From: Cyanophora paradoxa CCMP329
Lineage: Eukaryota; Plantae; Glaucophyta
Direction: 5' to 3'
DNA: 64,000 nt
Assembly (NCBI GenBank): GCA_004431415.1
Contig: QPMI01000427.1
Location: 1 to 64,000 of the forward strand
The notes under the pieces were generated by a model. The model saw nothing but the letters and a program-made list of their open reading frames with translations. It did not search any database and was not told the origin of the DNA. Of the stretch, positions 7,526 to 31,318 are shown piece after piece. The translations under genes were made by a program, and so were the position numbers. Each line of letters begins with the position of its first letter. The first letter of the stretch is position 1.

Positions 7526-7829
7526 GAAAACTACACATTTAATACCAAAACTACGCAACTACGCAACTTTCTGAAAAAGTTTGAGAGTAGGGGGGGAAAA
7601 AAATTAGAAAAGTGAAAAAGTTGCGTAGTTGCGTAGTTTTGGTATTAAAAGCGTAGTTTGCGGTATTAATTTGCGTAGTTTAACATAGGTAGTTGAGTAG
7701 TTTAAAGTAGTTTTTATTAATTATAAAGTAGTTTATTATTTATCTTATTGTTATCAGTCTGAGACTCTATGAAAATCGATTGACCTTAGTGTGAAACAGT
7801 GCGCCCCGCCCACTATGCAAGATACATGC
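7526..7829 (+). repeat. Left terminal inverted repeat (probably truncated on its outer side)
   Basis: Reverse complement of 30735-31038 by visual alignment (gaaaactacacatttaataccaaaac...cactatgcaagatacatgc). Confidence 0.92.
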
Positions 7830-8139
7830 ACACTACGTACATGCGAGTTCTATGAAAACAATAACGATTTAGTCATGTATATATTTCGTATATATGTCCG
7901 ACCCTCCGTGTGTGTGATCCCGCACAACTTTGACTTTTTTAGTTGTTTTTTGGCTTTTCCGCATATGACGACATATACATATATATACCGGCGTCACCGA
8001 CATATTCGGCGTCATCGCATTGCGGCGAGTCCGAAAACGTATAGCATGCCACAAAGTAGTTTTTTATGTGTTTTTCGATCGATCGACCAATCGCGGATGT
8101 GAACCGACTGTTTTATTTTATTTAATTTATCATTCATGG

Positions 8140-8225
8140 GTGACAGGGGGGATACCGGTTAAGGTGACAGAACGTGACAGGGGGGATACCGGTTAAGGTG
8201 ACAGAACGTGACAGGGGGGATACCG
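8140..8225 (+). repeat. 34-bp tandem repeat (2.5 copies)
   Basis: gtgacaggggggataccggttaaggtgacagaac units start at 8140, 8174 and 8208. Confidence 0.9.
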
Positions 8226-8378
8226 TAAAGGTGGCATTTTGTGGACATTTGTGGACATCGGGGCTACCGGGTTTGTGGTCATTTTGTGGACAAATTGCGA
8301 ACAAAAACTTGAATGCATATATATGTGTATATGACTGACCAGCCGCTGAGCGACTGACCGGCTTGCAAGTTGCAATTT

Positions 8379-8432
8379 CCCGAGTTCCGAGTCCCGAGTC
8401 CCGAGTCCCGAGTCCCGAGTCCCGAGTCCCGA
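8379..8432 (+). repeat. Heptamer tandem repeat (CCCGAGT)n
   Basis: About 7 consecutive CCCGAGT units. Confidence 0.9.
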
Positions 8433-8799
8433 CTCGATAACACCGGCGATCGCGACTCGGCGGCGACCCCCCCTCTCGTTATCCGGGCGTAACTTTTGAC
8501 AGCAAGCCGATCTCGGCGCGCTCTCAATTGCTACGTGCTCGTAACTTGCTTCCGGGCATGTTGGTGCTAGTTTGACTAGCTTAGTCGCCGGGCGCGCAAA
8601 ACCCCAGTTCGACATATTGACGGGTGCCAAAAACCGAGGTGTCCCCTACGTCGTGCGCGCCGGCGCGCGTTCTCGTGCGTTTCCACTAGTCATACTTTGC
8701 ATCCGCGCGCGTATAGAGTAGTTCTACACTACTACAAAGCGGCGCGGTCTGATTCGCAAAGCGCGCGATTTGGCGGCTACGAAAGCACCGCGGCGCCTA

Positions 8800-10242
8800 C
8801 TACTTGCGTGGTCTCAGAGTCGCTTTTCGATCGCCATTAGCTACCGGCGCTACCGTTGCTACTTTTCTACTACTTCTTAATGTAGCTTTGGTTTCCGGCG
8901 CTTTGTAGCTCTCAGTTTGATTAGAGAACGACTTATACCATCGTTGGCTATTCACTCCGCCGGACAGCTTAGGCTCGGCGGCTGTTACTAGCCGCTGTAA
9001 TTCTTTATTTACTCGTTTCTCTTTTTGCACGCGATCCTCTAATAGAGTGCCTTGCGGCACAGTCGCGGCGGCTTCTATGCCCTCTCTACGCAATTGCGCA
9101 TCGACGCGCGCCTCGTCCTTTGCCGCCTCTAATGCATCTACTGTGGGCGCCATTAGGTAATCGACCGCCTGAACCGGTAAAAGCTCGTGGAAGGCAAAGC
9201 GACCCTCTACGCGATTGCCGTCCGGATCAGTTAGCATAAACTTATAGCCCTCGCGCGCGGCGACAGTATATACGATTCGGCTCCAATTGTTACCGCCCTT
9301 AGCGAATGGCGTCTTCTCGATGCGTAGCCTTACTGACATGCCCGGCTGAATCTGATCCAAATAAGCTATCGATTTCTTGAATTTCGCATCTTCTTTTTGC
9401 ACTATAAGCTTATAGTGACTCTCGTTGGTCTCGGCGGGCATATAGCCGGTCGCAGAGTGCACCGTATTATTATAATTATATTCCAGAGACGAAAGGACAT
9501 CTATAAATCGCGCCGTATTATTCGCGATGCAGTAGCTCGTGATCAGCCGCCGCATTTGCTTGTTAAATGCTTCTATGCGCCCTTGCGCGCGATGGTCGGC
9601 TGTGTCCGCTATCTGATGCTCGATAAACTGATTCTCGAAATATTTGCGCATAATATCATTGCGGAATTCGCTTCCCGCATCGCTTTGCACTTTGAAAATT
9701 GGTCTCGGCGCCTTATTTTGCAGCTGTATAAAGGCGGCTAAGGTCGACGCCGCGGACTTATCCCGCATCGGGATAATGAACCCGACCCGTAATGTGTTCT
9801 CCATAGCCGTGAGAAAAGCACTGTAATTATCATTATACTTCGAGTAAGCGGGAAAGAATAGCAGATCAATTACGTAGGTATCGAGAGGCTGTCGGATCGG
9901 TATAGCCGGGTCTCGTTTGCGGGATAGGTGCGGCGCATTAATCTGAACGACCTCTTGCCGGCTATACCACTCTTGCAATTTCTTATAATTCTCGTCGGGC
10001 AGCTCTTGCCGTAGCTTAGTGATCCCTTTGAAACCGGTTTGCGGATCGTAGAATTTACGCGCGATTTTCGATTCCTCCGGGACAGCAAGGGCTACGGGCA
10101 CGTCGCGGGGCACCAAAGCCTTTAAATCAGACCGCTTTACTATGCGGCTCTCTTTATTCTCTTTGGGCACGGGGATCGGCAATGTGCTCCCCTCTAAATC
10201 TTGCGATCGTCTTACTATTGGCGGTCTTGACATCCTTGTCAT
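8800..10242 (-). CDS. rve (DDE) integrase, Polinton type
   Basis: Triad YVIDL / QSDAGSEF / GRIEAFNK; YNNTVHSATGYMPA; C-terminal SH3-like PGMSVRLR...FAKG..NWSRIVYTV...GRFAFHELLPV; basic tail. Start chosen by homology with copy A. Confidence 0.93.
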   Translation of the reverse strand: MTRMSRPPIVRRSQDLEGSTLPIPVPKENKESRIVKRSDLKALVPRDVPVALAVPEESKIARKFYDPQTGFKGITKLRQELPDENYKKLQEWYSRQEVVQINAPHLSRKRDPAIPIRQPLDTYVIDLLFFPAYSKYNDNYSAFLTAMENTLRVGFIIPMRDKSAASTLAAFIQLQNKAPRPIFKVQSDAGSEFRNDIMRKYFENQFIEHQIADTADHRAQGRIEAFNKQMRRLITSYCIANNTARFIDVLSSLEYNYNNTVHSATGYMPAETNESHYKLIVQKEDAKFKKSIAYLDQIQPGMSVRLRIEKTPFAKGGNNWSRIVYTVAAREGYKFMLTDPDGNRVEGRFAFHELLPVQAVDYLMAPTVDALEAAKDEARVDAQLRREGIEAAATVPQGTLLEDRVQKEKRVNKELQRLVTAAEPKLSGGVNSQRWYKSFSNQTESYKAPETKATLRSSRKVATVAPVANGDRKATLRPRK

Positions 10243-10305
10243 CAGACAATAAAAAAGATCAATGTAACATTTTACATGCAAGAGGCAATAGAAGGTTTTG
10301 TTTGT

Positions 10306-10962
10306 TTACGGTAAATCGGGGCGGAAGATCTTCACAACGATGCTGTTTCTATCGTATGTAAACCACCCATTATGCTTGTCCCACGATGCCCCGTTTTCCT
10401 TTAAGAATTTGCGCAAGGTAGCCCGAGATTTAATCGTCAAACCATGCTTTTCGAAATTGGGATACGATTGTGTAAGGTCTCTCGGCGGCACATCCAAATA
10501 AACGCGGCGCATTGCTTCCTGACGTTCACGATTGCGATTCATTTCTAACTTCCGAGACTGAGCACGAATTATTGCGAAAAGAAGGTCTTGTGAATTTCCA
10601 TTAATTCCAGATCCTTCAAAGACTTTGATAGGGTCAATTACTTCCACAAAATCGGCAGCAGTTACGTTGGGGTCTTCTTCAAATAACTCCCTTCTCTCCT
10701 CGTGTGGTATTTCCGGATACGTAAACCAGAAGAAGCGATTGTCGACCATCCCATACATCCTATTGGGGTTTGCAGGAAAATACCCGATCATAGAGAAATT
10801 TAAGTTCTGAACATCCATCATACCGACAAGACGGACAATCGCATTAATTCGCTCATTACTCAATCCGAGAAAGTTAGCAAAGACGGGGTTGCCTTCGATT
10901 GGAATGCTCATTATAGCGCGGTGGCGCCCGCGGTCTTCATCGCCTTCAAATGCGTTGTCCAT
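10306..10962 (-). CDS. Hypothetical protein with C-terminal DUF5710-like motif
   Basis: 218-aa ORF ending VYLDVP...LKENGASWDKHNGWFTY, resembling the 'L.Vp...K..GA.WD....W' module of viral and plasmid replication proteins. Has its own copy of the upstream promoter motif. Confidence 0.6.
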   Translation of the reverse strand: MDNAFEGDEDRGRHRAIMSIPIEGNPVFANFLGLSNERINAIVRLVGMMDVQNLNFSMIGYFPANPNRMYGMVDNRFFWFTYPEIPHEERRELFEEDPNVTAADFVEVIDPIKVFEGSGINGNSQDLLFAIIRAQSRKLEMNRNRERQEAMRRVYLDVPPRDLTQSYPNFEKHGLTIKSRATLRKFLKENGASWDKHNGWFTYDRNSIVVKIFRPDLP

Positions 10963-11240: not shown

Positions 11241-14200
11241 CTAACAGCCGAATGGAAGGCTATGTATGCCGTCGCCTGATATGCAGCGCTTGCTATCGAA
11301 TTGGGTCAGCGCTATCCGCTTGCTCTCCAAATCATATAAGTGGTGGCATCGCCGTTGCTTGTTTACTACTGTTACTGTTTTTGTGATCCCGTCAAATAGG
11401 CAGCGCTTAAAGTCGTCGAAATGCACCTCTTTCGAGGCTGTCCCGCTCATTTTTACCTTGTCGTAGCTCTCAGTGCGGAAAGCATATAGCTTCGGTCGCA
11501 GCCCCACATACTCCACTATCTTGACGTCGGGCATCTCATTTTTATATTTACCGGGAACCATCCGGTTCTCGGGACTATAAGGGCAGTCTAAATGAGGGCT
11601 GATCGCTCGCATGCCCGCTTCCAGATCCGCGGTCTCTATATACAGACAGAACGAGTCAGTATCGTGGAACAGCAGCTGAGCTTGCGACCAGGTGGGACGG
11701 ATCACGTCGTAAAAGAAGCTATAATTATGCAGCTTCGCGGCATCCAGCACATAAGCGCCAATAGCAACCGGTTTATCGAGTTTTACGTGTTTACTATACA
11801 TTTCGAATGCAACAGCGCTTTCGTTTAATACATTCGTCGCTTTTACCAGCGGGCTCGCCGCATATTTCTTAAACAGCTTAGTGCTGTTCGCGATCTTTAC
11901 CACGGAGCGCCCGCGACACGATTCCAGGCATTTACCGTAAATAGCATTGTTCATTAATTTAAAGAAGTCGCTCTCGAATTTATTCCGGGCTTCCTTTCGC
12001 AGCTTCGTGTTCAGATCTATATAGGGCTTCATAAATGCAGCGGTTGCAAACGAGAGCACCCGGTGGATCTTAGTAACTACAATCCCCTTTTTTACCATAT
12101 AGAGCAGCATCGGCTGAGAGACCACGTAATTATATTTCGGAGTAAACGAGGCGATCAGCTTCGGATCTTTACTGAGCTTCTCGCCGCTAATCTCCAAAAG
12201 CCCACGCTGATATTTGCCGAGCATGTCCGCAGTAATTACCTCTTTACTCACGATCAGCGGGAAATCGCGATGGTCAGCCTTTAAATAGTCCGGATACGCA
12301 AGGTCGACCTCTATAAATGCACTCCGCCCTACAACCTCGGTAAAAGCTGTGCTTGTGTCGTCCCAGCGATAGTCCCCGACCGGTAAAGGCTGACTGAGCG
12401 CATAGCCATATAGGTTATTCGCATCCAATAGCACTATATGTTTATTCTCGCTATTAGCCTCGGCATATCGTGTGGGCATGGTCGCAAAGCCGCCCCTAAT
12501 TGCCCGCTCAATAAATTCGTATTGATCCGCATCGCTGATCTGTTCTATCGCGACCCTCGTATGCTTTAACATCGCGTCCCACGATAGTCCCGGTGCGCTC
12601 ACATAATGAGTCGGATCCAGACCGTATTGCTCATGGGCGAGCATACTGAATTTACCGAATTTTACCATGAGATCATTAACATCGGACGCCTGAAAATCCA
12701 TGAAATTCGAGGCGTCTATAAACTTGTAAAGTCCCCACTGTAAAGAGAGATACTCATCGAAATTCTTACTTAGGATCTCGACCCGCAGCTTGTCGTCTTG
12801 CTGTGCGATTTTCCTGAATATAGCATGCCCGCACTCGTCCATCCTATCAATGACCACGGCTACTTTCGTTTGCTTTGAGATCCTCCTATGTAAATTGCAT
12901 TTTCGGCAAGCTTTCCCTATATAATCGCCGCTTTGGTGACAGTGATCGCGCACAGGGAAGTTTTCGTGGGTAAACCGCTGATTGCATATATAGCAGTGTT
13001 TGGTGATTTTATAGGCTTGCTTTTGCGCCTCTGTGAGCGGAATCATAGGTGTATTAGTAAATAGTGTATTAAGCATCTCGCGGCACAGATCGCCTAACGT
13101 GGTAAACATCTGTCCCAGCGGATCCACGCCCTCGAATTCGTGATTTTCAACATGAGAGCCCATAACAACATTAAGTGCCACCGACTTTACCTCTCGCTTG
13201 GTTCTATTTGGTTCATTAGGAACCGGCACCGACTCCATTTCTACCTTGCAGTAACAGACAGTAGGAAGCCACACCATTTTCCTTAGGTGTTGCAGTCCGA
13301 AAGTAATAAAGCTTCCGGGCTCCGGGCATTTACCTTTACTCAGCCGCCAATCGATACAGCGATTAGAGTCGGTGTGGCTATCGAGTTTCTCCTGTGATCG
13401 GAACCGGGACAAGCAGGTTTCGCAGTAGAAAATGCGCCCGTCGTTTGCTTTATCAAAGGTGGTCTTTAAGAGGCGGCTCAGTGACATAATCGTAATATAG
13501 TGACCCTGTCCGTTTGCGTCCTCGATCAGCAGCAGGTTTACCTTCGATTTACGACGCGGATTACTTGACATGTGCAGTGGGTAAAAGGTTTGGGTCGCAT
13601 TGTCGGCGCCATATATATTAATTGACAGCTCGGGATTATTGTCCTCGAAACGATCGATTATTTGGGCATCGCAAGCCACCGGGAAAGTAATGCCTGAGAA
13701 GTCCAGCTCAGTCATCCACCGCCTATATTGGAACGGATCATTACGTTTGTGTCTGTTTATGTCGTTTCTGTGCAGCCATGCGAGGATAGCGTAATTAAAA
13801 CAGTCGTGACCATCGATATTCTTAATATTTACTGTGGCTCGCTTTAATCCAATCCATTCGGGGGTCTCAATGTAGCAGCCGCCCATCGGCGCATATGACA
13901 AAACGGCGACATGTAGCTTATCTAATTTACTGAGCCGGTAGCTGTCGACCTGTATCATCTGTTCATTCATTTGCTGAGCTACACCCACTAACTCAGTGAG
14001 AATATTGCGCGACCTTGTGATTACGAAATAATCGCTGTAAATGTGTTTAGTGATAAAAACGTTAGGATCACTCACTTTTACGTATCGGCAGATGAAAGTA
14101 AGGCGCACCTTAATAGCTTTAAGCTCGTCCAGCCTCTCTTTCAGCCGCCCAGGCAGATTTGCAGCGATGGTAGTGAGAAATTCCACCGGATCTAAGATTA

Positions 14201-14504
14201 TCTGTTCATCCGCCTTATAGCTATACCAGGCGTATGCTTTATTCATTGCGAAACCGTCGTCCTCATCGGGTTCTATGACGGCTAAGCGCCGCCCTTCGGT
14301 ATAGAAGCGCTCCACATTTTCCAGGCGATTGTAGAGCTCGTCGGCAATATTCGCAAGGTTAGCTAAGCGGGGTTTTCGATCTAAGATCGCCGCCCTCCGA
14401 TCGTATTCGGCTTCGGTGATCTCCCCAGTGACTAAAAGACTACCTAACAAGCCTAATATTTCGTCCTTTTTCTCTTTTATAAGGCGATTAGTTTGGCGGG
14501 GCAT
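11241..14504 (-). CDS. polB: Protein-primed family B DNA polymerase
   Basis: Intact 1087-aa ORF co-linear with 3440-6721: LLDANNLYGYAL, KLMNNAIYGK, FHDTDS, GLRPKLYAF, and the same OTU-like, ZnF and EndoVII-like segments. Confidence 0.95.
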   Translation of the reverse strand: MPRQTNRLIKEKKDEILGLLGSLLVTGEITEAEYDRRAAILDRKPRLANLANIADELYNRLENVERFYTEGRRLAVIEPDEDDGFAMNKAYAWYSYKADEQIILDPVEFLTTIAANLPGRLKERLDELKAIKVRLTFICRYVKVSDPNVFITKHIYSDYFVITRSRNILTELVGVAQQMNEQMIQVDSYRLSKLDKLHVAVLSYAPMGGCYIETPEWIGLKRATVNIKNIDGHDCFNYAILAWLHRNDINRHKRNDPFQYRRWMTELDFSGITFPVACDAQIIDRFEDNNPELSINIYGADNATQTFYPLHMSSNPRRKSKVNLLLIEDANGQGHYITIMSLSRLLKTTFDKANDGRIFYCETCLSRFRSQEKLDSHTDSNRCIDWRLSKGKCPEPGSFITFGLQHLRKMVWLPTVCYCKVEMESVPVPNEPNRTKREVKSVALNVVMGSHVENHEFEGVDPLGQMFTTLGDLCREMLNTLFTNTPMIPLTEAQKQAYKITKHCYICNQRFTHENFPVRDHCHQSGDYIGKACRKCNLHRRISKQTKVAVVIDRMDECGHAIFRKIAQQDDKLRVEILSKNFDEYLSLQWGLYKFIDASNFMDFQASDVNDLMVKFGKFSMLAHEQYGLDPTHYVSAPGLSWDAMLKHTRVAIEQISDADQYEFIERAIRGGFATMPTRYAEANSENKHIVLLDANNLYGYALSQPLPVGDYRWDDTSTAFTEVVGRSAFIEVDLAYPDYLKADHRDFPLIVSKEVITADMLGKYQRGLLEISGEKLSKDPKLIASFTPKYNYVVSQPMLLYMVKKGIVVTKIHRVLSFATAAFMKPYIDLNTKLRKEARNKFESDFFKLMNNAIYGKCLESCRGRSVVKIANSTKLFKKYAASPLVKATNVLNESAVAFEMYSKHVKLDKPVAIGAYVLDAAKLHNYSFFYDVIRPTWSQAQLLFHDTDSFCLYIETADLEAGMRAISPHLDCPYSPENRMVPGKYKNEMPDVKIVEYVGLRPKLYAFRTESYDKVKMSGTASKEVHFDDFKRCLFDGITKTVTVVNKQRRCHHLYDLESKRIALTQFDSKRCISGDGIHSLPFGC

Positions 14505-14526
14505 CTTTTACTCTAAGGGAACATTT

Positions 14527-15182: not shown

Positions 15183-15330
15183 AGGTAGGCTTATATACCT
15201 TTGTCAAATTTTGAGAATGGCACGATATATAGTATACAAAATAATAAACTACTTAATTAATATAATAAACTACATGAAACTACTTGACTTTCCTTGCAAA
15301 ACTACGCAACTTGAAACCAAAACTACGCAC

Positions 15331-15441
15331 TTAATACCAAAACTACGCAACTACGCAACTTTTGCGCTTTTCAGAATTTTTGCCGCCCCGACCTTCAAAC
15401 CTTTTGCAGAAAGTTGCGTAGTTGCGTAGTTTTGGTATTAA
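15331..15441. repeat. Iteron-containing inverted repeat (candidate internal replication origin of element B)
   Basis: Perfect 32-bp arms ttaataccaaaactacgcaactacgcaacttt (15331-15362) and aaagttgcgtagttgcgtagttttggtattaa (15410-15441). Further AACTAC(GC) units occur at 15248-15330 and 15442-15515. Lies about 90 bp after the helicase stop. Confidence 0.85.
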
Positions 15442-15533
15442 ATGCGTAGTTTCCGGTATTAAATTGCGTAGCTTCGCTATGTAGTCGCGTAGTTACTAAA
15501 AACTGATGTAGTTAATGATTGTTTGGATGTCGT

Positions 15534-18130: not shown

Positions 18131-18352
18131 TTAATACTTGCGGGGTCGCCCGCGGTTTCCACTGTGAATGCCCTCTTCTTGCTTGCGACGGTAGTAATAT
18201 TCCAGCGCCTTTTTCTTTTTTAATTCGCGATATTCGGGATCGTCGTTATAGCGCATCCGCTGTTTATATATATCCCTGACACGCCAGCCCGCCTTATCGA
18301 GATCTACCGGGTTCCCGTTCTTATCATACACAGTCATAGCATGCGTCTCCAT
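18131..18352 (-). CDS. Small basic protein with AT-hook (RGRPRK)
   Basis: 73 aa ending GNRGRPRKY; homologue at 91-317 in the same position in element A. Confidence 0.7.
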   Translation of the reverse strand: METHAMTVYDKNGNPVDLDKAGWRVRDIYKQRMRYNDDPEYRELKKKKALEYYYRRKQEEGIHSGNRGRPRKY

Positions 18353-20724: not shown

Positions 20725-20770
20725 TTCCCTTATAAGAAACATATAAAAATTACGAAACGCGACAGCCCGA

Positions 20771-22219
20771 TTAAGCGCTGATGCGAGACAAGCCGTTGGC
20801 ATTCATTACAAGAATATTGTGGCAGTAAGCCGAGATCTGAACACCGACCTTTGTCCAGGTGGCGAGGGGTGTGCCATTGGGTGTGAGGATTAGGAAGCTC
20901 GACGCTGATTGCGTTAGATCGACGTAGCCAGTCGCCTTCTCACCTTTGAGTGCCGCTTTACCATCGAGAGCAAAGCAGAAGCCAGTGTAAATGGGGCGCT
21001 TGTTGCTATCGATCCAGTTAGTCATCTTGAATTTATCGGCGAGCTCCATAGCCGCGGATTGCAGCGGGACACCAGTGTTAGAATATAGGTAATTGTTGTT
21101 ATTTAGAACTTGCATCACGACATTATCATCGAAGGCAAGGGTGCGGACAGTAGAGTGCCCTCCTTTATTATCGCCGAGTGTGTTTTCGTCGCGAACCTTG
21201 ACAACAAGTGCGTAAACAAGTCCAGAAATTTGAGATAGCGACAGGCGGAGACCAGAGCCGAGAGCAAGACCGGTATAATCCGCAAACTGAATATCAGTGT
21301 AGGGGATGGCGATGCCAGAGGTCTTAACACGAGTAATGATTTCGCCCATCGTTTCCTCATCGATGTTAACAGCGTCCATAACAATACGAGGGGTCGTCAT
21401 TTCCAGATTCGCAAGTGCAGGTGTAGGTGTGAGAGCCGCACTATCGAAAATCGCAGTGGCACCCGAGTGAGCTAAGGTCTTAATATTTCCGAAAGCAGCC
21501 GCTTGAGCAAGCGTTGTCTCGCCATCAGTAGAATTGGTCGCAGTAATTGCAGCAGCGTTATTCTGAGCGTAAACGCCAGGAACCGCCGCAGTTTCGAGCA
21601 GCGCAGGGGTTTGGAAATATACTTCGACCGCGATTTCGGATGGGAGCGCACCGATGGGCACGCCAGCATCGAGGAAGCTCGGAATTCGCATGGTAAAAAT
21701 GCCGCCAGCTTGGTTGCCGCCCTCTACCTTCGGTCCGAGATGCAGCCCATGCTTGCGCTTCTTTTGGTCGAATTCAGCCGGAGTGTTAGCCAGGAAAGCG
21801 TAATCTACCAGGCGCTCAGCCGGAATAATTTGCTCATACGACCCGTATTTAATGCTGACTCGCTGAACAAACGAGCCAGGAAGCCCGCGGACGAATCCAG
21901 TGTTGAATAGATCAGCCGAGCAGTCAGCAGAGGTCTTGGCGATGGCAGTTAGCGCCTTCGCCGACGGGATGGTAACTTGGAGGCTAATACCATTGCACCA
22001 ATTGTAGCGAGGGAGATAGAAGACCACACGAGTGGTAGCACCAGTAGAGGAGAACAGATTGCCGGGATCCGCAATTGGGAGCACCTCCACACGAGAAGGC
22101 TTGAATTGTTTGTCCACACCCACGATAAATCCGCGATCCAAAAGCATGCTCTTGTAATCCTCCGGGGTTTCGAGGACGGATTTGAGCGTGAGGCGGCTAA
22201 GCGAGGTCGTGGGATCCAT
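20771..22219 (-). CDS. Probable double jelly-roll major capsid protein
   Basis: 482 aa, beta-rich, next to the ATPase. Strand patterns VVFYLPR..ISLQVTIP, FVQRVSIKYG, RIPSF...PIGAL..IAVEVYF, GYVDL and C-terminal ISAYCHNILVMNANG are typical of DJR MCPs. Confidence 0.8.
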   Translation of the reverse strand: MDPTTSLSRLTLKSVLETPEDYKSMLLDRGFIVGVDKQFKPSRVEVLPIADPGNLFSSTGATTRVVFYLPRYNWCNGISLQVTIPSAKALTAIAKTSADCSADLFNTGFVRGLPGSFVQRVSIKYGSYEQIIPAERLVDYAFLANTPAEFDQKKRKHGLHLGPKVEGGNQAGGIFTMRIPSFLDAGVPIGALPSEIAVEVYFQTPALLETAAVPGVYAQNNAAAITATNSTDGETTLAQAAAFGNIKTLAHSGATAIFDSAALTPTPALANLEMTTPRIVMDAVNIDEETMGEIITRVKTSGIAIPYTDIQFADYTGLALGSGLRLSLSQISGLVYALVVKVRDENTLGDNKGGHSTVRTLAFDDNVVMQVLNNNNYLYSNTGVPLQSAAMELADKFKMTNWIDSNKRPIYTGFCFALDGKAALKGEKATGYVDLTQSASSFLILTPNGTPLATWTKVGVQISAYCHNILVMNANGLSRISA

Positions 22220-22252: not shown

Positions 22253-23539
22253 TTAGAAGAACGGATTATTTTTTACAGCCACCCCGCTCAACGCATTCGT
22301 TAAATTGCCGCAATGCGGGTAGTCCTCATAGAGCATTTTCGCGAATCCCTTATTAACAATGCGCTGTAAATCGTCGTCGGGCTCATCCACTCCCATAGTA
22401 ATTTCCAAAATGAATGTGTGCTCACAGCTTCCGAGGAAATACCTATAACCGCTCTCCGTGAGAATTTGAACGGTTAAACTATCAAAGGAGAGGCGGGTGT
22501 TAAAGTATTTCGTGAAAGCATCCGCCCCATAATTAATTAGCTCAGCATCAGCATAGGCTGTGCCTTTCGAAATCGGGATCTTAGCGAGGAATCCATTAGT
22601 AGCCTCGGTGCATGTCGTAAAAAGCGAGCAGTCCGGCTCTGTGATCTTTAAAACTATTGCATTATCCGGTGTATAATCAGGGGCAGTGCCTCCGGCTATG
22701 CCTAAGACCAGAGCCGTCGAATTATAATTGCGGAATGCATCACCAGCTGAGTAAACGACACCACTCCCAGCAAAGGCTGTATAGCCCGATCCGTTGTATT
22801 GATCTATCATTATATTCTCTCTGATCGATGTAAACCCGAGAAGAGTCATCGTGCGATAGGCGAGCACCTTTCTTTCATTCGCAGTAGACCCAGTGGCATT
22901 ACTCGGACCATATTTAGTGAAAGCTATGTAGACATAATCACTCGAATAAAAGCATATGGCATTTAATGTGCTCTCAAAACGGCATCTCACCACCGGGTAA
23001 AAGGTTCCCCCTGTCGATGCGTAGCTTGGATTAATTTTTGTGTCGATCATATCCTTGATGTAGTTGCCAGTTCCATTTTTCGTTAAGATGTTATCGATTG
23101 CAGTGGCAAGGTCGGTTCCAGTCGAGTATGTGCCAGGAGGGATCGTAATTGCTACGTCCCTGTATCGGGTATATCTTCTGAAAGTGTTTAGGTAATCAGG
23201 CGGTATATAGTTGCCTTGGTCGCCGAAATCTATCGCTTTGTATGCTTCGTATATTGCAGTTGCCTGTGAATCTCTGATTTCCTGAGTGGCACCATTCAGC
23301 TGACCGCTCGAAAATCGGTAAGGAAAGGATATGAAAATCGTATTAGCATCCTCGGCTTTCGTCTCCCCGATCTCAGTATAGAATTGAGGGCTTGGAACCG
23401 TCGGAATCGTGTTGGAAAATTCGATCTGTCGCACAGCGATGCTCTTCACATTGTGGTATTGCTTTGGAAGGGTCACCTTATAGGAATGAGCCGAGCCCTC
23501 TGATCGATCACGGCTACTGATGCTGAGATACTCGCGCAT
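22253..23539 (-). CDS. Minor capsid (penton-like single jelly-roll) protein 1
   Basis: N-terminal YLSISSRDR...SYKVTLPKQYHNVKSIAVRQIEFSNT and C-terminal LAKIPI...DSLTVQILTESG..Y...EHTFILEI, the penton pattern of PLVs and NCLDVs. Confidence 0.75.
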   Translation of the reverse strand: MREYLSISSRDRSEGSAHSYKVTLPKQYHNVKSIAVRQIEFSNTIPTVPSPQFYTEIGETKAEDANTIFISFPYRFSSGQLNGATQEIRDSQATAIYEAYKAIDFGDQGNYIPPDYLNTFRRYTRYRDVAITIPPGTYSTGTDLATAIDNILTKNGTGNYIKDMIDTKINPSYASTGGTFYPVVRCRFESTLNAICFYSSDYVYIAFTKYGPSNATGSTANERKVLAYRTMTLLGFTSIRENIMIDQYNGSGYTAFAGSGVVYSAGDAFRNYNSTALVLGIAGGTAPDYTPDNAIVLKITEPDCSLFTTCTEATNGFLAKIPISKGTAYADAELINYGADAFTKYFNTRLSFDSLTVQILTESGYRYFLGSCEHTFILEITMGVDEPDDDLQRIVNKGFAKMLYEDYPHCGNLTNALSGVAVKNNPFF

Positions 23540-23566
23540 TTTATTCTTTATTAATAGGAAATAAAA

Positions 23567-24541
23567 ATGATTCGGAAGCCAGTTAACGATTTCTATAATG
23601 GCAAGTTTACGAGGGTCAATGTTAATATCGATTCTATTGAGCGCAGTGCAGGGCACCCGGGAGAATATACAGTAAAGCTTTCTCAGCGACTTCTGAACGT
23701 AAAAGGGGTGCGCATTGCGAGTGCCGAGCTCCCGAACACGATTTATGCTGTCACCGATAATTCCAGAGGCGTGACCATACAGGGAATGACGAACACCATC
23801 ACCTTTTCCCCTTTCCCTGATATTGGGAACTACACCCCAGCGATTTGGGGATATGGTAATAAGAACTTAGGCTATTCGGGCAGCTTTGTCGATGTAAACC
23901 CTCTCACAAGCGAAAGCGTCACAGTTTACTACAAGTGGCTCTATAATCCAGCGACAATGAAACTCACCTTTTATTCAAGCATTCCTCTAACACTGAGCTG
24001 TGCTTATGACGACTTTGCACGATTCCATGGAATGGTCAAAGGGCAGGTTTACCAAACAGCAGTCGCAGAAAAAGGAAGCCCTCACTATCAGGTCTCGTAT
24101 GCTGATGTGACCCCATTCCACTTGCAGTATTCATTCTTGCAAGCATTCGAGGGTCGCTCAATATTCCCGCCTAATTTACCAATATCCGAGAAATTCCTAT
24201 ACAATGCAGTGACCTTCCCGAATGCGATCAATTTAAATCCGACCCCCTATGTTTACCTACAAATTAAAGAGTTTACTCCCTTTTACGACAGGTATATGGT
24301 GGCAGCAAAGACAGATGAGGGCGGAAATGCAAACCTCGCTAAGATTCCACTGACCAGCCCCTTGGGATCGTTTGTTTACTACCTGACATTCCGCAGAATC
24401 GATACTGTGGAGTTCTTTAATTCCCACGATCAGGCTTATGACATAGACACCCTCACCATTAAATGGCTCGACGCCTACAATAATGTAGTCAACTTTAATG
24501 GCGTTAATCACAGCTTTATATTAGAGGTGCTATCGGGTTAA
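23567..24541 (+). CDS. Minor capsid (penton-like) protein 2
   Basis: NIDSIER...YTVKLSQRLLNVKGVRIASAELPNT...PYVYLQIKE...LAKIPL...IDTLTIKWLDAYNNVVNFNGVNHSFILEV; a clear paralogue of 22253-23539. Confidence 0.78.
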   Translation: MIRKPVNDFYNGKFTRVNVNIDSIERSAGHPGEYTVKLSQRLLNVKGVRIASAELPNTIYAVTDNSRGVTIQGMTNTITFSPFPDIGNYTPAIWGYGNKNLGYSGSFVDVNPLTSESVTVYYKWLYNPATMKLTFYSSIPLTLSCAYDDFARFHGMVKGQVYQTAVAEKGSPHYQVSYADVTPFHLQYSFLQAFEGRSIFPPNLPISEKFLYNAVTFPNAINLNPTPYVYLQIKEFTPFYDRYMVAAKTDEGGNANLAKIPLTSPLGSFVYYLTFRRIDTVEFFNSHDQAYDIDTLTIKWLDAYNNVVNFNGVNHSFILEVLSG

Positions 24542-24559: not shown

Positions 24560-27500
24560 ATGAGTATCACGAATCTCCCCTTTATCACTCGGGAAACCTT
24601 GTATTTGGATGACGGTTTCGAGCTCAGCAGTAACATTACCGCTTCCAATGTGACCATATCTTCGAACCTTGTGGTAAAAGACTTTCTATTAAATCAGAGT
24701 AACCTTGAATATATTGATATCACCAGCAATCTCCCTTTTACCTATGGCACTGATAACTCAGCCCTCGTAATATATCATGGGGCTCACCTGTTGCATTCTT
24801 TGGCAGCAATTTCCCCACAGTGAGAACCTTTCAGCACGAAATCAATAAAGCCCGCCCCATCCCACTGACAGCTGTCGTCGAATGGGATCCTGTTAAATAT
24901 TCGCAGAGAATCACAAGCAATATCACTCTGACCCGACCGCATTTAATTGATGTCATGGGGGTCGACTTGTAAAGGAGTTTTATAGTGAGCGATTCACAAG
25001 AAACGAGCGAGATGTAGCCCAGGATCTCGAAATTTCGGGTTTATCAATTGCTACCGCAGCAAACACGGCAGGGCTCGCTGTTTTAACAGGTGCAATCACC
25101 ATCACTGATGCGATCATGTATTTATCCCGCGATTTGGTGCCTTTGCTCGATCATCAATTTAATCTCGGGCAATCTAACACTGATGCTGTTAAGAAATGGC
25201 TCAATGTGTATGCCTATGATGGGTGGTTTGATGACTTGCACACGACTTACCTTTATAGCACGACCTCAAAAACAAGTAACATAATCTTGCCTTTCAATCA
25301 GTCAGTCCGACCCAGTGATTTACCCACTGATGAGAGAGCTCTGATCAGCTATAATGACTTTAACAGCAATCTTTCCCGCTCAGTTTCGCGAACTGAGACC
25401 TACGAGGTCACAGGTTACCCTCAAAAGATCGCAGGGCTCGAAGTCTATGTGGTGTATGCTGATAGCCCGACCTATACATTTACATGGGGTCAATTGGGTG
25501 TCACAGGTTTCGAGGCTTTACCTACTGTGACCTTGGTCGATCATACAGTTTACTATAACAATGTTACTTACACTAATGAATCTAATAAAGCATATGTCCA
25601 TAATATCACCTCCACAGGGTTCCAGGTTTCGTTTATCAATCTTAGTAATTTAATTACCATCCGAAACTCTTCACTAAACAGCATAGCAAATGTGAGCTTC
25701 ACTCTTACTATCAATTATGTCACCCCTGTCTTCGATAGCAAACCCAGAGTAAAGATTTACCGCGATTTACAGGGTAGCAATATCGTGCCCTTCTCACAGA
25801 ATTTGGATCTTGGGGCGAACTCTTTAAGGTGGAACACAGTTTATTCTTTGAATGCAAACACCTGTAATATTGTGGTCGCAGGATCATCGGCTACTATTGG
25901 AGAACTGACCGCCCCTTTTAGAAAGGAGTTTCTCAGAGAACTGTATATAACAAAGTCTGATTTACCAGATGCTATTTCGTTGGTGCTCTCCCCCACTCCC
26001 AGTATATCCTACCACAATGTGAAAGACACAAGTAATGTAGTGCAGAGGGGAAGCAAAGTATTCCAGGCATCCGAGATATCAGCATCAACATATAGATACC
26101 TTGCAGGGGTTCCAGCGAATTTTAATTTCACATTTGAGACACCTTTTGTTTCCCCTCCTACTATTGAAATAACAGATACGAATTTGTATGTGATCAATAA
26201 TGGATCATCTACCTCTCTCAACAATGCGCCCCTTGGTTACTCTCCATTTGTCGCCACAAATATAACAACAACCGGCTTTACACTTGTCGGAAATGCAACA
26301 GTGACCTATGCTCTGTCAGGATATCCTGTTGGATTATATTTTGCGAAGTTTAATCTTACTCCAACCCCACCTGTGTCCCTTTCTCCTCCCTTTACTATCA
26401 GTTGGAAGGCAACAGGAACTATTCCACGATTCGACCCCGAAGATCGCTTGAAAATTAGGTATCCTCTCGATGTGACCGACCTCCATACTACGAGAATAAA
26501 TGGGCAGAATTTCGTATTTAATGGAACCAATGCGACTCTGATCAATAACAGTGTCACAAATAATTACTTTTTCGATTCTCGATATATTAATACTTGCAAC
26601 ATTGTCATACAGAACACGTTTGAGAATCGCAGTAAGACCTTAACAGTCACCTTGCCCACTCACTCGAATGTCTCAGATGGATTTCACTATTATCTTTTCA
26701 ATCGCAATTACACCTCCTATATTCCATATCCTTCTGAGACTGTCAACATGAGCTATCCCAGAGTCACCCTAACATCGACCAATGCTGACTTCTTTGGATC
26801 CACCGACTTTATGACCTTCTTTGCTTTCACATCCTCTACTGATGGGCTCTTAGTTTATTACACTTTCAGGTATGATGCTGTTTGGACTCAGCTTGACAGC
26901 CACCCAAATACAGATGTCATCGAAGTGGGCGATAAGAAATATATTAAAACCGCTTCCCCATGGGTGTGCACTGTCCGGCTCGATGATAGATACACTCCCA
27001 ACCTAAATAACATTGGAATGCACTCGACATGTAATATTTATGTGCAAGGTGCAATTTCGGCTACCAAATATTTCGAGGGTGGGAACTGTGATGCAGCCCA
27101 TAGGTTGCTATCGCGAAATGGGCTCTTTGAGTCATTCAGTGGGACGGCTCTACCGCCCTTTATCAGGGACACAGTCTATGATACTACATGCAATATTTGG
27201 GTGTGCCGATCTGTGAGCAATCCGCCTGTGACAAAGGAATTATATAAATACCTGTCAGATACCTATGGTGCAATTACAGGGTCTTCAACAGGAAATCCAG
27301 CAACGGCTCCCATCGTGTTTGCGAATGCATACACAGCGCCGACATCATTAGCAGGGTCGACAGAACCGCCACCAAACGATCCCAATCCAAACACACCTAA
27401 GCCAGATCCCGATTCGAAAAATCCCCCTACAACTAATCCAGATCCAAACACGACACCTAATAATCCCTCAAATCCTACAAACCAGCCCGTGGGTCGTGGT

Positions 27501-27878
27501 GTCGATCCAGGACTGATAGTTATTGCTGTGGTTGTGCCTGTTATTACTTTATTCGGGGGTATACTTGCATACAAATTTCGGGCTTTATGTTGTGCATGTT
27601 GTGATCGGGTCATTGCAGGTGCAGGGAATAAATATTCGGCACCAGAGATGAATGTGACCCAAACAGCCGAAGGAGATGTGGGGTTAGAGGTGAGGTCAGC
27701 CGAGGGGAATGGTCTAAGTGTTGTGAGAACTGATCAACCACCAGCAAGTAGGGCAGCACCCAAAAAATCGCGAGCAGAACGAAGGGCTGAATCAATAATA
27801 AAAGATAATGCAGACTTTATGGCGGAAATGGCACAGCGAGAGGGCAGAACATACGAGCTTCTCCCGATGCGACCTTAA
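24560..27878 (+). CDS. Large fibre/spike-like protein with C-terminal transmembrane segment (5' part frameshifted; main ORF 25116-27878)
   Basis: SN/CN-type repeats and Thr/Asn-rich beta segments (FTFETPFVSPPTI...ISWKATG), a Pro/Asn linker, hydrophobic GLIVIAVVVPVITLFGGILAY, then CCACC. The reading frame is open upstream of 25116 to about 24975; 24560-24823 may be the true N-terminus or a separate gene. Confidence 0.7.
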
Positions 27879-27907
27879 TTTTTGTAGAATGCCTTAATAG
27901 AGAAATA

Positions 27908-29370
27908 ATGACGGAACCCATAGTAGAAACGACAGTAAAGAATGCTGTATTGGAAAATCAATTCTACATCACCCATAAAGATCTACCCAGTGAATCCAAT
28001 GATCTGATCGTTAATATGAAAGGCTATGTGATGGGAGCTATGGCTTCTAACCTATGGAATGACCTTTTCGGTTACGAGTTTGGTCACATCTATGACATTG
28101 CAAATGGGATCGGCTATGTGGATGCAATGGCAGGCACAGCCTTTCGCAATTTAAATTGCAACTGTGTGGGTGGGTGGATGTTTCAGATCTGTTCAAATGT
28201 CGATCCTACTATTGATCCCGCCACGATTACCTTTGATTGCAATCTGTTTGCCCCCAAAACCATTTTCTCCATCACTTGCAATCTCGTTAATTCGGATGTG
28301 CCCATAGTAGCACCTGTAATAGGTGCATCAAATATGTATATCCAAAGAAACCCGGTCGTGCATACAGGTGCCGAATTTATATTGGGCGACAACACCCCAA
28401 TTAGTCGACTCGAATTGCCCACGAATTTCACCTTTAATCTCGTGGATGAGTTCCCTAACAGTCAAAGTCTTATGTATTTCACCTCTGAAAATCGCCTTTC
28501 GGGTGCATTCTCACCCATTGAGCTGTCTATACCGAAGCAAAAGGTGAGCTATAAAGAGCTTACAGATGTGCCGGCGGGATTTAGTGGGAAGTGGAGTGAT
28601 ATCATTCAGAAGCCGACTTGGAGTAGTGTAGCATACACAGGAAATTACTATGATCTTGTAAATCCTCCCGATTTCACAAGCTATATACCTCGTTGGATTG
28701 ATCAAGGTGTAATTATATCAGAATCTACACTCCCTTTCAATGGGACATGGATAGGTTATTTACTAAGCCGAATTTGCATGCTGTTGCCACAAGTGGTGAT
28801 TACAACGATTTAACTAACACCCCTATTGCACCGACCTTGCATGCTGTGGCTACAAGTGGGAGCTATACAGATTTAGTTAATACACCAAACTTGCATGCTG
28901 TGGCTACAAGCGGGAACTATGACGATTTAATTAACACACCCACTTCGCCACCTACTCACAATCACAGCATCGAGTTGCTCACGAATTTCGGTAGTTATGT
29001 GAATCCAAATGCATATGTGCAACAAGGGACAATGGATGTAGTAATTCCTGCCGGAGTCTATTACAAAGGGGATTTTACCACAGTATCGGGAACCGTTACA
29101 TTCTCAACCCCATTTTTTAGTGATCCTGTAATTACTGCTACTCTCGAAAACAGTATTATTTTAACAAGTGTCGATTTCACCAATAGCATATATCTCTCTG
29201 CTGAATATCAGTTCGGAAATCGCATTGGGTTCAAAAATAAATTCACTTGGATTGCGATATTCACTTGTTACTCGGACATCAATTATAACAGTGTGATCCA
29301 AAGCAATCGCACCCTTAAACTCCATTGGATTGCTGTCGGACCTCTCCAAAACAATAATATTCTCGCTTAA
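27908..29370 (+). CDS. Tail-fibre-like protein with LHAVATSGxYxDL repeats (one frameshift near 28750)
   Basis: ORFs 27908-28813 and 28747-29370 join (NGTW-DRLFTKP) if one G is added at tggatagg. Contains three LHAVATSG.Y.DL.NTP repeats and a C-terminal VTFSTPFFSDPVIT...LHWIAVG fibre-tip domain. Confidence 0.75.
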
Positions 29371-29391
29371 TAAGTAAAGAACAATCAAAAG

Positions 29392-30414
29392 ATGTCAACT
29401 GTATTCACGCCTGTGTTTTCTTTGAGTGCAAGTGCTGTCCATAATGTCCAACACACAGTCTATGATTTATCTCCGAGCCATCCTTCGACTGAGACAGCGA
29501 AAACCGATTCTTTTAATGACCAAAGCATACTCAGAGTCAAAGAACTCAGAGCTGACAAGATTGATGGACTCGTTAAAGCTACTCAAATGATCGTATCTAA
29601 TCGACCCGCAATATCTTCGGGGCTGGTCACCAAAGAATATCTATATGAAGGTCAACAGGATTCCAAAACGGCTTTTAATCCGGCTGATAGGAATTCGGCG
29701 GCTTTTCAAGTTTACAGTGGAGGGGCATGGATTGGGACTGGACTGAGTGTGAATGGGACAGTGACAGCAACTTCTTATGGGGCTGTGAATGCAACCACTG
29801 GTGGATTTACTGGGCTCCTAACAGCAAGTGGTGGAATCAAAACGAATTCAATTGATACTGTGGGTGCAAGTGATAATTTTGTAATTAAGAGAGGCGGTGC
29901 AAATATTGCTTCTACCTTTGCTTCAAGTTACACAAGACCAAGCAATAGCACCACTTATAACTGGAATGGGTTCACTATTAATGGGACAAATTCATATCTT
30001 TCAACTCCAAACCATCCACGGTTTTGTTATGGTTTGAATGCTTCCCTTACAACAGCAGGGGATGTCACTGCATGGGGGTATTCATGGGCTACATCGACTT
30101 CATTTTCGAGTGGTGTCTTTACAGCACCTGTGAGTGGTGTTTATAGATTTATATTTAATGGAACAACTGGAAATACAGCAGACACCGCTGTTCAGTGGTT
30201 TATCAATGGTAGCGGGACATATGCAGGGGTTGAAATGCTTGGGTATTCTGGGGGGACTTCAACATCAAGTTCTTTCAGACCTATTTCAATGCAATGCATG
30301 ATTAATCTGGTAGCGGGGGATTCCATAAAGATAAGATTGGTCTCAGGAGCACTACATGCTTATACAACAAATGCCCATTGTTTCTGGTCGGGCGAATTAA
30401 TTTCTGTTACATAA
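29392..30414 (+). CDS. Fibre protein with C-terminal C1q/TNF-like domain
   Basis: FSSGVFTAPVSGVYRFIFNG ... INLVAGDSIKIRL ... FWSGELI is the C1q signature; Gly/Thr-rich shaft. Confidence 0.82.
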   Translation: MSTVFTPVFSLSASAVHNVQHTVYDLSPSHPSTETAKTDSFNDQSILRVKELRADKIDGLVKATQMIVSNRPAISSGLVTKEYLYEGQQDSKTAFNPADRNSAAFQVYSGGAWIGTGLSVNGTVTATSYGAVNATTGGFTGLLTASGGIKTNSIDTVGASDNFVIKRGGANIASTFASSYTRPSNSTTYNWNGFTINGTNSYLSTPNHPRFCYGLNASLTTAGDVTAWGYSWATSTSFSSGVFTAPVSGVYRFIFNGTTGNTADTAVQWFINGSGTYAGVEMLGYSGGTSTSSSFRPISMQCMINLVAGDSIKIRLVSGALHAYTTNAHCFWSGELISVT

Positions 30415-30423
30415 AGTAAAAGA

Positions 30424-30687
30424 ATGTCGAACATCTACCAAGTCGTTCTAACTGATACCGAGAAACTGGGAATGGAATACTGTGCCTTCTCTGTTCAGGA
30501 ATGGATTGATAATGTAGCTCATAATAGGGCGAGAATCGCTGTGGATGAAATCGTGGACAAAGAAGTTAAATCGTGTATTGGTGCTGGAATTCCGATTCCA
30601 CTCACAAAGGAAGCGATTGTAGAGCAAGCGTTTAATCGGGGGACTGTTCGAAAGGCAAGCGAAATTCCTGTGAGTGCTCCTATGTAA
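30424..30687 (+). CDS. Small phage-like protein downstream of the C1q fibre
   Basis: LTDTEKLGMEYCAFSVQEWIDNVAHNRARIAVDEIV resembles, from memory, small ORFs that follow C1q fibre genes in aquatic tailed phages. Confidence 0.65.
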   Translation: MSNIYQVVLTDTEKLGMEYCAFSVQEWIDNVAHNRARIAVDEIVDKEVKSCIGAGIPIPLTKEAIVEQAFNRGTVRKASEIPVSAPM

Positions 30688-30734
30688 AGAGAGATGGGTT
30701 TATTGTTATTTTTCATAGATCATGCATAAGAAAG

Positions 30735-31038
30735 GCATGTATCTTGCATAGTGGGCGGGGCGCACTGTTTCACACTAAGGTCAATCGATTTTCATAGAGT
30801 CTCAGACTGATAACAATAAGATAAATAATAAACTACTTTATAATTAATAAAAACTACTTTAAACTACTCAACTACCTATGTTAAACTACGCAAATTAATA
30901 CCGCAAACTACGCTTTTAATACCAAAACTACGCAACTACGCAACTTTTTCACTTTTCTAATTTTTTTCCCCCCCTACTCTCAAACTTTTTCAGAAAGTTG
31001 CGTAGTTGCGTAGTTTTGGTATTAAATGTGTAGTTTTC
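30735..31038 (-). repeat. Right terminal inverted repeat (matched part)
   Basis: Reverse complement of 7526-7829. Contains the 32-bp iteron palindrome (30916-30947 / 30994-31025). GCGTAGTT motifs continue beyond 31038. Confidence 0.92.
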
Positions 31039-31122
31039 GGTATTAAAAGCGATCAGATTGCGTAGTTTTCATGCGTAGTTAATTACAGTCGCGTAGTTTC
31101 AGTGCGTAGCCGCTCAGTTTCA

Positions 31123-31200
31123 GTGCGAAACTAATGCATTTAAGTGCGAAACTCACACATTTACGTGCGAAACTCATGCATTTACGTGCGAAACTGATGC
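31123..31200 (+). repeat. 21-bp tandem repeat (about 4 copies)
   Basis: GTGCGAAACTnATGCATTTAm units start at 31123, 31144, 31165 and 31186. Confidence 0.85.
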
Positions 31201-31318
31201 CTAATTGCGTAGTTGGGCACACTCTCGATGCGCGCGAACGTTTCATGCAGCACATAGTAGTTGTTTTTTGATGAAACGGCGCGTGATCGTCGCTTTTATA
31301 TTGAAATTTCAGAACAAC

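What the first reader, a model, noticed from the sequence alone, without database searches (positions are those of the whole stretch)
7526..31300. Near-complete endogenous PLV combining pPolB, PrimPol-SF3 helicase and rve integrase without a protease
Seen: an element of about 24 kb with intact integrase (full DDE), pPolB, primase-helicase, ATPase, MCP, two pentons and fibres, bounded by inverted repeats, in a GC-rich intron-dense eukaryote. No adenain/Ulp1-like protease motif was found in any ORF. Known: classical Mavericks/Polintons have pPolB, integrase and protease; many PLVs lack the protease and use other replication/integration modules. Inference: a possibly undescribed and possibly reactivatable lineage carrying two priming systems. 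Its coding DNA appears to lack the palindromic micro-insertions common in the neighbouring host DNA, suggesting recent integration.
Basis: partly seen in the sequence, partly recalled or inferred. Interest (0 to 1): 0.78.

Follow-up and report, generated by a model that had tools for sequence, protein, structure and literature searches.

The report
Algal provirus pairing proofreading-dead polymerase, helicase
This is one end-truncated copy of a multi-copy, virus-like element in an algal genome whose capsid type was already catalogued; its DNA polymerase has lost the proofreading motifs, and it likely relies on the neighbouring primase-helicase, which is predicted to start copying at phage-satellite-like repeat origins found beside that gene and in the element's ends.

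Summary
The gene set is real: DDE integrase, pPolB, PrimPol-SF3 helicase, A32 ATPase, double-jelly-roll MCP, two penton-like genes and fibres. There is no adenain/Ulp1 protease (scan positive in 5 of 8 polinton controls). Four corrections. (1) The left flank is not host but a sister element, cut inside its integrase. The right end probably runs to 31626, so the left TIR lacks about 590 bp and no target duplication is seen. (2) The MCP is 40% identical to a Cyanophora paradoxa MCP listed by Bellas 2023; multi-replicase, tandem elements from that assembly appear in a 2026 preprint. (3) pPolB keeps vOTU protease residues. (4) Palindrome absence does not date the insertion. New here: both sister pPolBs lost ExoI/II/III and about 100 residues, all kept in 7 of 7 relatives, yet remain under purifying selection. 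Each helicase gene is followed by its own convergent iteron array, which is copied into the TIRs. Best model: one replisome in which helicase compensates for exonuclease loss, as in mavirus, rather than two independent systems. The scan earlier noted similar nested elements in this genome.

The parts
602..2829 (+). Sister element: PrimPol-SF3 helicase, frameshifted in the window; probably assembly errors
   Evidence: 5 tblastn pieces, 24-43% identity to the right helicase; short-read contigs differ by many one-base indels here (tables 4 and 8)
2910..3050 (.). Sister element's convergent iteron array (TGTGACGC repeats, 45-nt spacer, 78% AT), 3' of its helicase; candidate origin
3440..6721 (+). 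Sister element pPolB, open, 72% identical to the element's pPolB, also exonuclease-dead
6887..7515 (+). Sister element integrase, N-terminal half only, cut about 10 nt before the left repeat; other copies run on intact
   Evidence: 65% identity over 198 aa; joint 7515 to 9480 on opposite strands in 2 of 4 runs
7526..7829 (.). Left terminal inverted repeat, truncated; holds 5 ACTACGCA iterons
   Evidence: 100% complementary to 30735-31038
8800..10242 (-). rve/DDE integrase (D126, D188, E224)
10306..10962 (-). 218-aa cargo ORF without Cys; slot occupied by other sequence in other copies
   Evidence: joints 10320-10960 and 10340-10967
11241..14504 (-). pPolB: TP-like region (Ser188), vOTU (Cys235, His335), zinc finger, inactivated exonuclease with EndoVII insert and about 100-aa deletion, intact palm motifs A/B/C
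   Evidence: domain names from PMC11161782
14527..15158 (-). Two small ORFs (98 and 90 aa), function not assigned
15239..15494 (.). Internal copy of the TIR iteron array (7 ACTACGCA, 47-nt spacer), 40 nt 3' of the helicase stop; candidate origin
   Evidence: 83-84% identity to both TIRs
15534..17948 (-). PrimPol (D78/D80, H110, D138) fused to a D5/P4-family SF3 helicase (Walker A 522-527)
18137..18349 (-). Small basic ORF ending in an AT-hook-like GRPRK (name recalled); a similar ORF precedes the sister helicase; coordinates approximate
19813..20802 (-). A32-like packaging ATPase
   Evidence: PF04665 E 7e-8; one homologue found, 81% identical
20771..22219 (-). [quoted passage not shown]
22253..24541 (.). 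Two divergently transcribed penton-like genes (22253-23539 minus, 23567-24541 plus)
   Evidence: DUF5901 weak; mutual similarity; not folded
25116..30687 (+). Fibre-like block: 920-aa ORF with H-lectin and a C-terminal membrane segment; 301- and 207-aa ORFs (probably one gene in other copies); C1q-tipped ORF whose tip is exchanged in other copies
   Evidence: indel near 28748 and joints 29801-30423, 29834-30652, 29888-30545
30735..31626 (.). Right terminal repeat, probably about 890 bp: iteron array (8 ACTACGCA), 21-bp tandem repeats, terminal 308-nt panhandle with a perfect 28-bp stem (31319-31346 / 31599-31626)
   Evidence: (fold z -5.8); boundary at 31626/31627 from one joint and two loose-end contigs
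32535..33419 (.). First low-depth host DNA to the right; identical in 3 of 3 runs
   Evidence: table 8
34726..37664 (-). DIRS-like retroelement (RT, RNase H-like, tyrosine recombinase); not part of the virus

Best explanation
The region is one left-truncated copy of a multi-copy, protease-less polinton-like virus, likely integrated in a glaucophyte genome and joined to a sister element, whose exonuclease-dead protein-primed polymerase likely works together with the adjacent primase-helicase as a single replisome. Shown: gene set, loss of the exonuclease motifs in both sisters, purifying selection, and iteron arrays 3' of each helicase and in the TIRs. Inferred steps: (1) rve integrase inserts the linear genome. 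(2) The PrimPol-SF3 protein binds the convergent iterons through its C-terminal domain, melts the spacer and primes, as SaPI Rep does at an origin just downstream of rep. (3) It unwinds ahead of a pPolB that, lacking an active exonuclease, would displace strands poorly and not proofread. (4) The TP-vOTU part, or the terminal panhandle, would finish the ends. (5) Genomes would be packaged by the ATPase into a capsid that needs no maturation protease. Helicase plus origin, the cargo slot and the fibre tip behave as exchangeable cassettes among copies.
For: ExoI DxE, ExoII HNxxxYD, ExoIII Tyr and the KGVYPY block are missing in 2 of 2 window pPolBs and recognisable in 7 of 7 aligned IMG/VR relatives; palm motifs A/B/C are intact. 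Between the sisters pS is 0.86 and pN 0.185, and pN is 0.175 in the exonuclease-bearing part: the protein is maintained. None of 60 ORFs scanned from 7 of the 8 relative loci (L004 left out; loci partial) matched an SF3/D5 family, and blastp of the helicase against their 102 ORFs found nothing. Gene order helicase-array-small ORF-pPolB-INT is shared by both sisters, so the pairing is old. All 20 ACTACGCA copies in 1-40000 fall in three arrays, arranged convergently. The sister has a different iteron at the same position; its helicase has diverged to 24-43% identity, against 65-72% for INT and pPolB. SaPI origins have this layout (PMC9371898 passages). phi29 exonuclease-site mutants lose strand displacement (PMC6351526 passages). 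Exonuclease loss paired with helicase gain is described for mavirus and Tlr1-type PLVs (PMC11161782).
Against: Contigs over this helicase are about 4-7x low-copy host depth, against about 12-17x over pPolB. Many copies of this pPolB therefore sit beside a divergent helicase or none; depth is only a hint. The internal spacer is 51% AT, not AT-rich. One contig per run in 3 of 4 runs skips the internal array (joint 15153-15447). The helicase model failed (pLDDT 33), so the winged-helix domain is unshown. Only 1 of 4 phage relatives read has a convergent array after the gene, seen by eye; my scanner flagged 0 of 4. The internal array and the left TIR also bracket INT-pPolB as inverted repeats, which fits the rival transpoviron model. 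No listed contig bridges either junction of this copy (tables cut).
Confidence: 0.55

Rival explanations
1. Composite element: a transpoviron-like INT-pPolB module bounded by its own inverted repeats (7526-7741 and 15239-15452) has joined a PLV that replicates by PrimPol-SF3. The two replicases are independent and one is being replaced.
For: The module is bracketed by repeats 83% identical. pPolB depth exceeds helicase depth. Barth et al. describe this arrangement and read EVE_QPMI01_83 that way. Halocafeteria virophages with pPolB plus D5 are read as transient states. The pPolB is polinton-type while the MCP is not.
Against: The same order holds in a sister with saturated synonymous sites, so the state is not transient. 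An exonuclease-dead pPolB would be a poor stand-alone replicase. The iteron differs between sisters in step with the faster-diverging helicase.
Confidence: 0.3
2. The locus as assembled is a chimera of collapsed repeats. The family is real, but this copy's left junction, and perhaps its perfect TIR match, are assembly artefacts.
For: Many one-base indels against short-read contigs in 1-3100, and several places where all laid contigs differ from the window. About 10 nt at 7516-7525 are unexplained. No target duplication. Bellas 2023 warns of false consensus in such regions.
Against: Nested and tandem insertions are common in such genomes. The large ORFs of the element are open. Host DNA to the right matches without differences. 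Contigs drop rare variants.
Confidence: 0.3
3. Free virus co-assembled with the host.
For: Low GC, high depth, and depth of the sister type differs about threefold between runs.
Against: Held in 20 DNA runs from 17 studies, 2012-2024. A contig in one run continues from 31626 into GC-rich sequence. Hundreds of MCP hits are reported on C. paradoxa contigs.
Confidence: 0.05

Closest known systems
Cyanophora paradoxa endogenous viral elements of Bellas et al. 2023 (PMC10120064, Tables S2 and S4)
   Same: MCP 40% identical to a listed, HHpred-confirmed MCP; likely the same host
   Different: Listed only as unnamed 'iterative HMM' clusters. The main text does not mention Cyanophora, and I saw no gene-content or mechanism description. 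I did not establish which of the two clusters holds this MCP.
Multi-replicase and tandem polisuviruses of Barth, Ha and Aylward 2026 (bioRxiv 10.64898/2026.10.13.758929), including EVE_QPMI01_83
   Same: pPolB-DDE plus AEP, internal repeats bracketing a replication module, tandem elements, same assembly prefix
   Different: They read the modules as independently mobile; the word exonuclease does not occur in their text. I could not see Figure 6, so identity with this locus is open.
Mavirus-type virophages (Lavidavirales)
   Same: rve + pPolB with degenerate exonuclease + separate SF3 helicase
   Different: Mavirus has a virophage MCP and vUlp1. Here the MCP fold ranks with NCLDV capsids (Sputnik rank 47), no vUlp1 is present, the helicase carries a PrimPol domain, and much of the exonuclease region with its EndoVII insert remains.
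Maverick-Polintons / adintoviruses (Polintoviricetes)
   Same: TP-vOTU-exo-palm pPolB, 29-34% identical to IMG/VR polinton-type loci; rve; TIRs
   Different: No adenain, no PF21738 match, dead exonuclease, extra primase-helicase
SaPI Rep/PriRep and P4-family primase-helicase replicons
   Same: SF3-related primase-helicase (TIGR01613) with convergent short repeats just downstream of the gene
   Different: Bacterial satellites; circular, tyrosine-integrase based (recalled); single origin, whereas here arrays also sit in both TIRs

Membership tests
Polintoviricetes (Maverick-Polinton) | pPolB with TP-vOTU-exo-palm | tested here: inconclusive
   Layout and vOTU Cys/His kept, exonuclease motifs lost
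Polintoviricetes (Maverick-Polinton) | rve integrase | tested here: met
   D126-D188-E224
Polintoviricetes (Maverick-Polinton) | vUlp1/adenain maturation protease | tested here: not met
   0 of 20 window ORFs, against protease-sized hits in 5 of 8 control loci and 2 false hits in integrases; the two unassigned ORFs of the right size have no Cys
Polintoviricetes (Maverick-Polinton) | Polinton-type MCP | tested here: not met
   No PF21738 match at E 0.1, while 3 control MCPs match at 1e-41 or better
Polintoviricetes (Maverick-Polinton) | TIRs with 5-6 bp target duplication | tested here: inconclusive
   TIR present, left end truncated, no duplication visible
Virophaviricetes (virophages) | Virophage MCP and vUlp1 | tested here: not met
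   No Sputnik MCP Pfam match (control L006 matches); no protease
PLV (broad sense) | DJR MCP + penton + A32 ATPase, usually no protease, 15-40 kb | tested here: met
   pentons weakly supported
Named PLV groups (PgVV, TsV, GKS1-3, Trimcap, PaM1, Zora, Zephyr) | MCP scores against the group's HMM or falls in its clade | not testable with these tools
   Group HMMs not available. Only 2 MCP hits among 1.84 billion representatives; Bellas 2023 puts C. paradoxa MCPs outside its named groups
SaPI/P4-like iteron replicon (works-like) | Convergent short repeats immediately 3' of the helicase gene | tested here: met
   2 of 2 helicase genes
SaPI/P4-like iteron replicon (works-like) | AT-rich central spacer | tested here: inconclusive
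   51-78% AT in 4 spacers
SaPI/P4-like iteron replicon (works-like) | C-terminal winged helix that binds the iterons | tested here: inconclusive
   Model failed, pLDDT 33; binding not testable
Transpoviron | pPolB-S1H fusion, no capsid genes | tested here: not met
   pPolB has no S1H fusion and capsid genes are present (definition)

The most novel reading that the evidence does not exclude
A glaucophyte virus lineage that is a third independent case of exonuclease loss compensated by helicase gain, caught part-way through decay. It initiates at SaPI/P4-type iteron origins built into its terminal repeats, and swaps helicase and cognate origin together as a replicon-specificity cassette among copies.
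Probability: 0.33. Interest if true: 0.7.

Novelty: new variant of a known kind. Interest (0 to 1): 0.46.

Why it matters
How most polinton-like viruses start replication is unknown. Here are two diverged helicases, each with its own short repeat array, which allows a simple cognate versus non-cognate binding test. The exonuclease-dead polymerase also offers a direct test of the published idea that helicase gain compensates for exonuclease loss. The element itself is not a new kind of system, and this copy lacks one end.

Tried and rejected
No whole genome was held, so copies could not be counted directly. MCP word searches found nothing new. IMG/VR scans with MCP, ATPase and helicase found no confirmed relative, nor did the metagenome scan with the MCP alignment. 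The Atlas was unavailable. A PDB sequence search with penton 2 gave 0 hits. The helicase fold failed. Iteron-pattern scans of metagenome and viral contigs gave 0 matches. No RNA holder was listed; this says nothing on expression. Pfam alone is no test for the protease, since it also missed the control proteases; hence the motif scan. Rejected: that the sister helicase is a decayed pseudogene (indels look like assembly error), and that palindrome absence dates the insertion. No MCP, ATPase or pPolB tree was built, for lack of reference sequences, so independence from mavirus is inferred. Literature searches for print absence: iterons with polinton (2 papers, 0 occurrences of 'iterons'), exonuclease/S3H (one search missed hyphenated wording), Cyanophora or glaucophyte. 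bioRxiv supplements and all figures were not seen and may show this locus.
Full report
Anatomy. The window holds 18 open ORFs between 8800 and 30687, at 45% GC against 70% in the distal flank. Domain scans give an rve-type integrase, pPolB with an endonuclease VII insert, PrimPol-D5/SF3 helicase, A32 ATPase, a weak DUF5901 match, H-lectin and C1q domains. Catalytic residues of integrase (D126, D188, E224), primase (D78/D80, H110, D138), helicase, ATPase and polymerase palm are present. The 482-aa ORF has 2 homologues among 1.84 billion representatives. Its three-sequence model is poor (pLDDT 41), yet all 26 printed Foldseek rows come from capsid entries of double-jelly-roll viruses, as do the top 8 VIA rows. 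No adenain motif was found in 20 window ORFs, while the same scan found protease-sized hits in 5 of 8 polinton-type control loci, plus 2 false hits.

Boundaries. The 304-nt inverted repeat is exact, but the left flank is viral. Positions 1-7525 carry a sister element in opposite orientation: helicase, repeat array, small ORF, pPolB (72% identical) and an integrase cut at about 7516. In 2 of 4 runs a deep contig continues that integrase intact. The sister's frameshifts match one-base indels against short-read contigs, so they are probably assembly errors. On the right, depth stays high to about 32500. One contig leaves the window at 31626 into GC-rich letters, and two contigs begin at 31627 with other sequence before them. 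The terminus is therefore probably 31626, the full repeat about 890 bp, and the left copy about 590 bp short. No target duplication is visible. The last 308 nt can fold back with a perfect 28-bp stem that pairs the extreme 3' end (z -5.8 against 30 shuffles). Contigs at 32535-33419 and 38180-43500 match the window with no substitutions. No printed contig bridges either junction, and the tables were cut, so the linkage of this copy rests on the assembly.

Family. The central 9 kb is held by 20 DNA runs of one organism from 17 studies. Single contigs over the element are deeper than low-copy host contigs: about 4-7x for the helicase, 12-17x for pPolB and 7-28x for the sister type (summarised in 103). 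Depth is a hint, not a copy number. Joints show the 218-aa slot and the C1q fibre tip replaced in other copies, and a loose end shows another terminal repeat type with different short repeats. The family is mosaic.

Polymerase. Aligned with 7 IMG/VR relatives (7 of 8 loci; L004 is partial), both window pPolBs keep the serine at the predicted priming position, the vOTU Cys and His, and palm motifs A, B and C. Both lack ExoI DxE, ExoII HNxxxYD and ExoIII Tyr, and delete about 100 residues including KGVYPY; all are recognisable in 7 of 7 relatives (motif names recalled). Synonymous sites are saturated (pS 0.86) while pN is 0.185, and 0.175 in the exonuclease-bearing part. The loss is therefore old and the protein maintained. 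No SF3 helicase was detected in the relatives' partial loci. Krupovic 2024 (PMC11161782; parts 1-4 of 6 read) defines the TP-vOTU layout and notes that exonuclease loss accompanies helicase gain in mavirus and Tlr1-type PLVs. Passages of PMC6351526 state that phi29 exonuclease-site mutants lose strand displacement.

Repeat arrays. All 20 ACTACGCA copies in 1-40000 lie in three convergent arrays: left TIR (5), 40 nt downstream of the helicase (7) and right TIR (8). The sister has TGTGACGC repeats in the same place after its helicase; loose ends show this array also occurs in another context. A tile scan of the window flagged these four places strongly and four others weakly, and 0 of 8 polinton control loci. 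Passages of PMC9371898 describe SaPI origins as 6-12 iterons just downstream of rep, pointing in opposite directions around an AT-rich centre. Against: spacers are 51-78% AT, the winged helix is unshown, and only 1 of 4 phage relatives shows such an array, by eye. Barth 2024 (PMC11296320, passages) already proposed PLV inverted repeats as origins for primase-helicases, without iterons.

What is known. The nearest MCP is a Cyanophora paradoxa protein that matches an entry in Bellas 2023 Table S2; Table S4 gives 366 MCP hits in two unnamed clusters (PMC10120064; passages, part 2 of 7 and supplement rows). Starrett 2021 mentions adintovirus-like proteins in C. paradoxa contigs (one passage). Barth 2026 (sections 10 part 1 and 13, plus passages) reports multi-replicase and tandem genomes with internal repeats, including EVE_QPMI01_83. 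The Halocafeteria preprint (passages and section 7) reports pPolB plus D5 in virophages, nesting and terminal palindromes. Bellas and Sommaruga 2026 (parts 1-4 of 5) report frequent module switching. PMC12220804 was seen as passages. Figures and bioRxiv supplements were not seen. Earlier scan notes name this genome as C. paradoxa and report a nested two-replicase PLV elsewhere in it; I did not test those notes.

Age. Palindromes of 8 nt or more are 5.8x shuffle in the adjacent flank, 1.3-1.7x in host DNA, 0.6-1.4x in element genes, 2.0x in the element's spacer and 1.2x in DIRS ORFs. They track non-coding DNA. CpG observed/expected is 1.06-1.46 in the element's replication genes but 0.24-0.57 in the sister's orthologues, which hints at different histories.

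Verdict. A real endogenous PLV of a catalogued but uncharacterised glaucophyte cluster, truncated at the left in this assembly. The gene combination is not unprecedented. The added value is the exonuclease-dead pPolB paired with a primase-helicase, and the helicase-linked iteron arrays, which give a testable single-replisome model (confidence 0.55). The main rival is a composite of independent modules (0.3). New variant of a known kind; interest 0.46.

Noticed in passing
window 1-7525: Sister-type contigs are about 21x low-copy depth in X1 and 28x in X19 but about 7x in X2, while the right-type pPolB is 12x in both X1 and X2: a hint of copy-number change between cultures or of extrachromosomal copies.
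   Followed up: partly
window 602-7515 versus 8800-17948: Strong CpG depletion in the sister's genes (0.24-0.57) but none in the element's orthologues (1.06-1.46); the fibre block is intermediate (0.71).
   Followed up: partly
window 31319-31626: Terminal panhandle whose 28-bp stem pairs the extreme 3' end, so it could self-prime into the element; a MITE-like insert is not excluded.
   Followed up: partly
window 30766: Loose ends in 2 of 3 runs show a third terminal-repeat type with different short tandem repeats; predicted to go with a third helicase type.
   Followed up: no
window 31627-32530: High-depth host repeat rich in short palindromes (5.8x shuffle); it begins with letters resembling the sister's iteron and spacer.
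   Followed up: partly
window 25116-27878: The 920-aa ORF ends in a Pro-rich linker and a hydrophobic segment (residues 800-818), more like a membrane-anchored adhesin than a plain fibre.
   Followed up: no
window 34726-37664: DIRS-like retroelement with RT, RNase H-like and tyrosine recombinase ORFs; multi-copy by depth.
   Followed up: partly
window 8140-8432: 34-bp and 7-bp tandem repeats in the element's spacer, variable in length among copies.
   Followed up: no
L006:10170-12044: IMG/VR contig with a Sputnik-type virophage MCP beside a polinton-type pPolB with intact exonuclease motifs.
   Followed up: no
L011:2796-3040: Lacticaseibacillus phage R18.1 has convergent 10-nt repeats right after its P4-family primase gene.
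   Followed up: partly
window 58131-61826: Host exons matching aldo-keto reductase and BolA; DUF4062 at 42663-43535.
   Followed up: no
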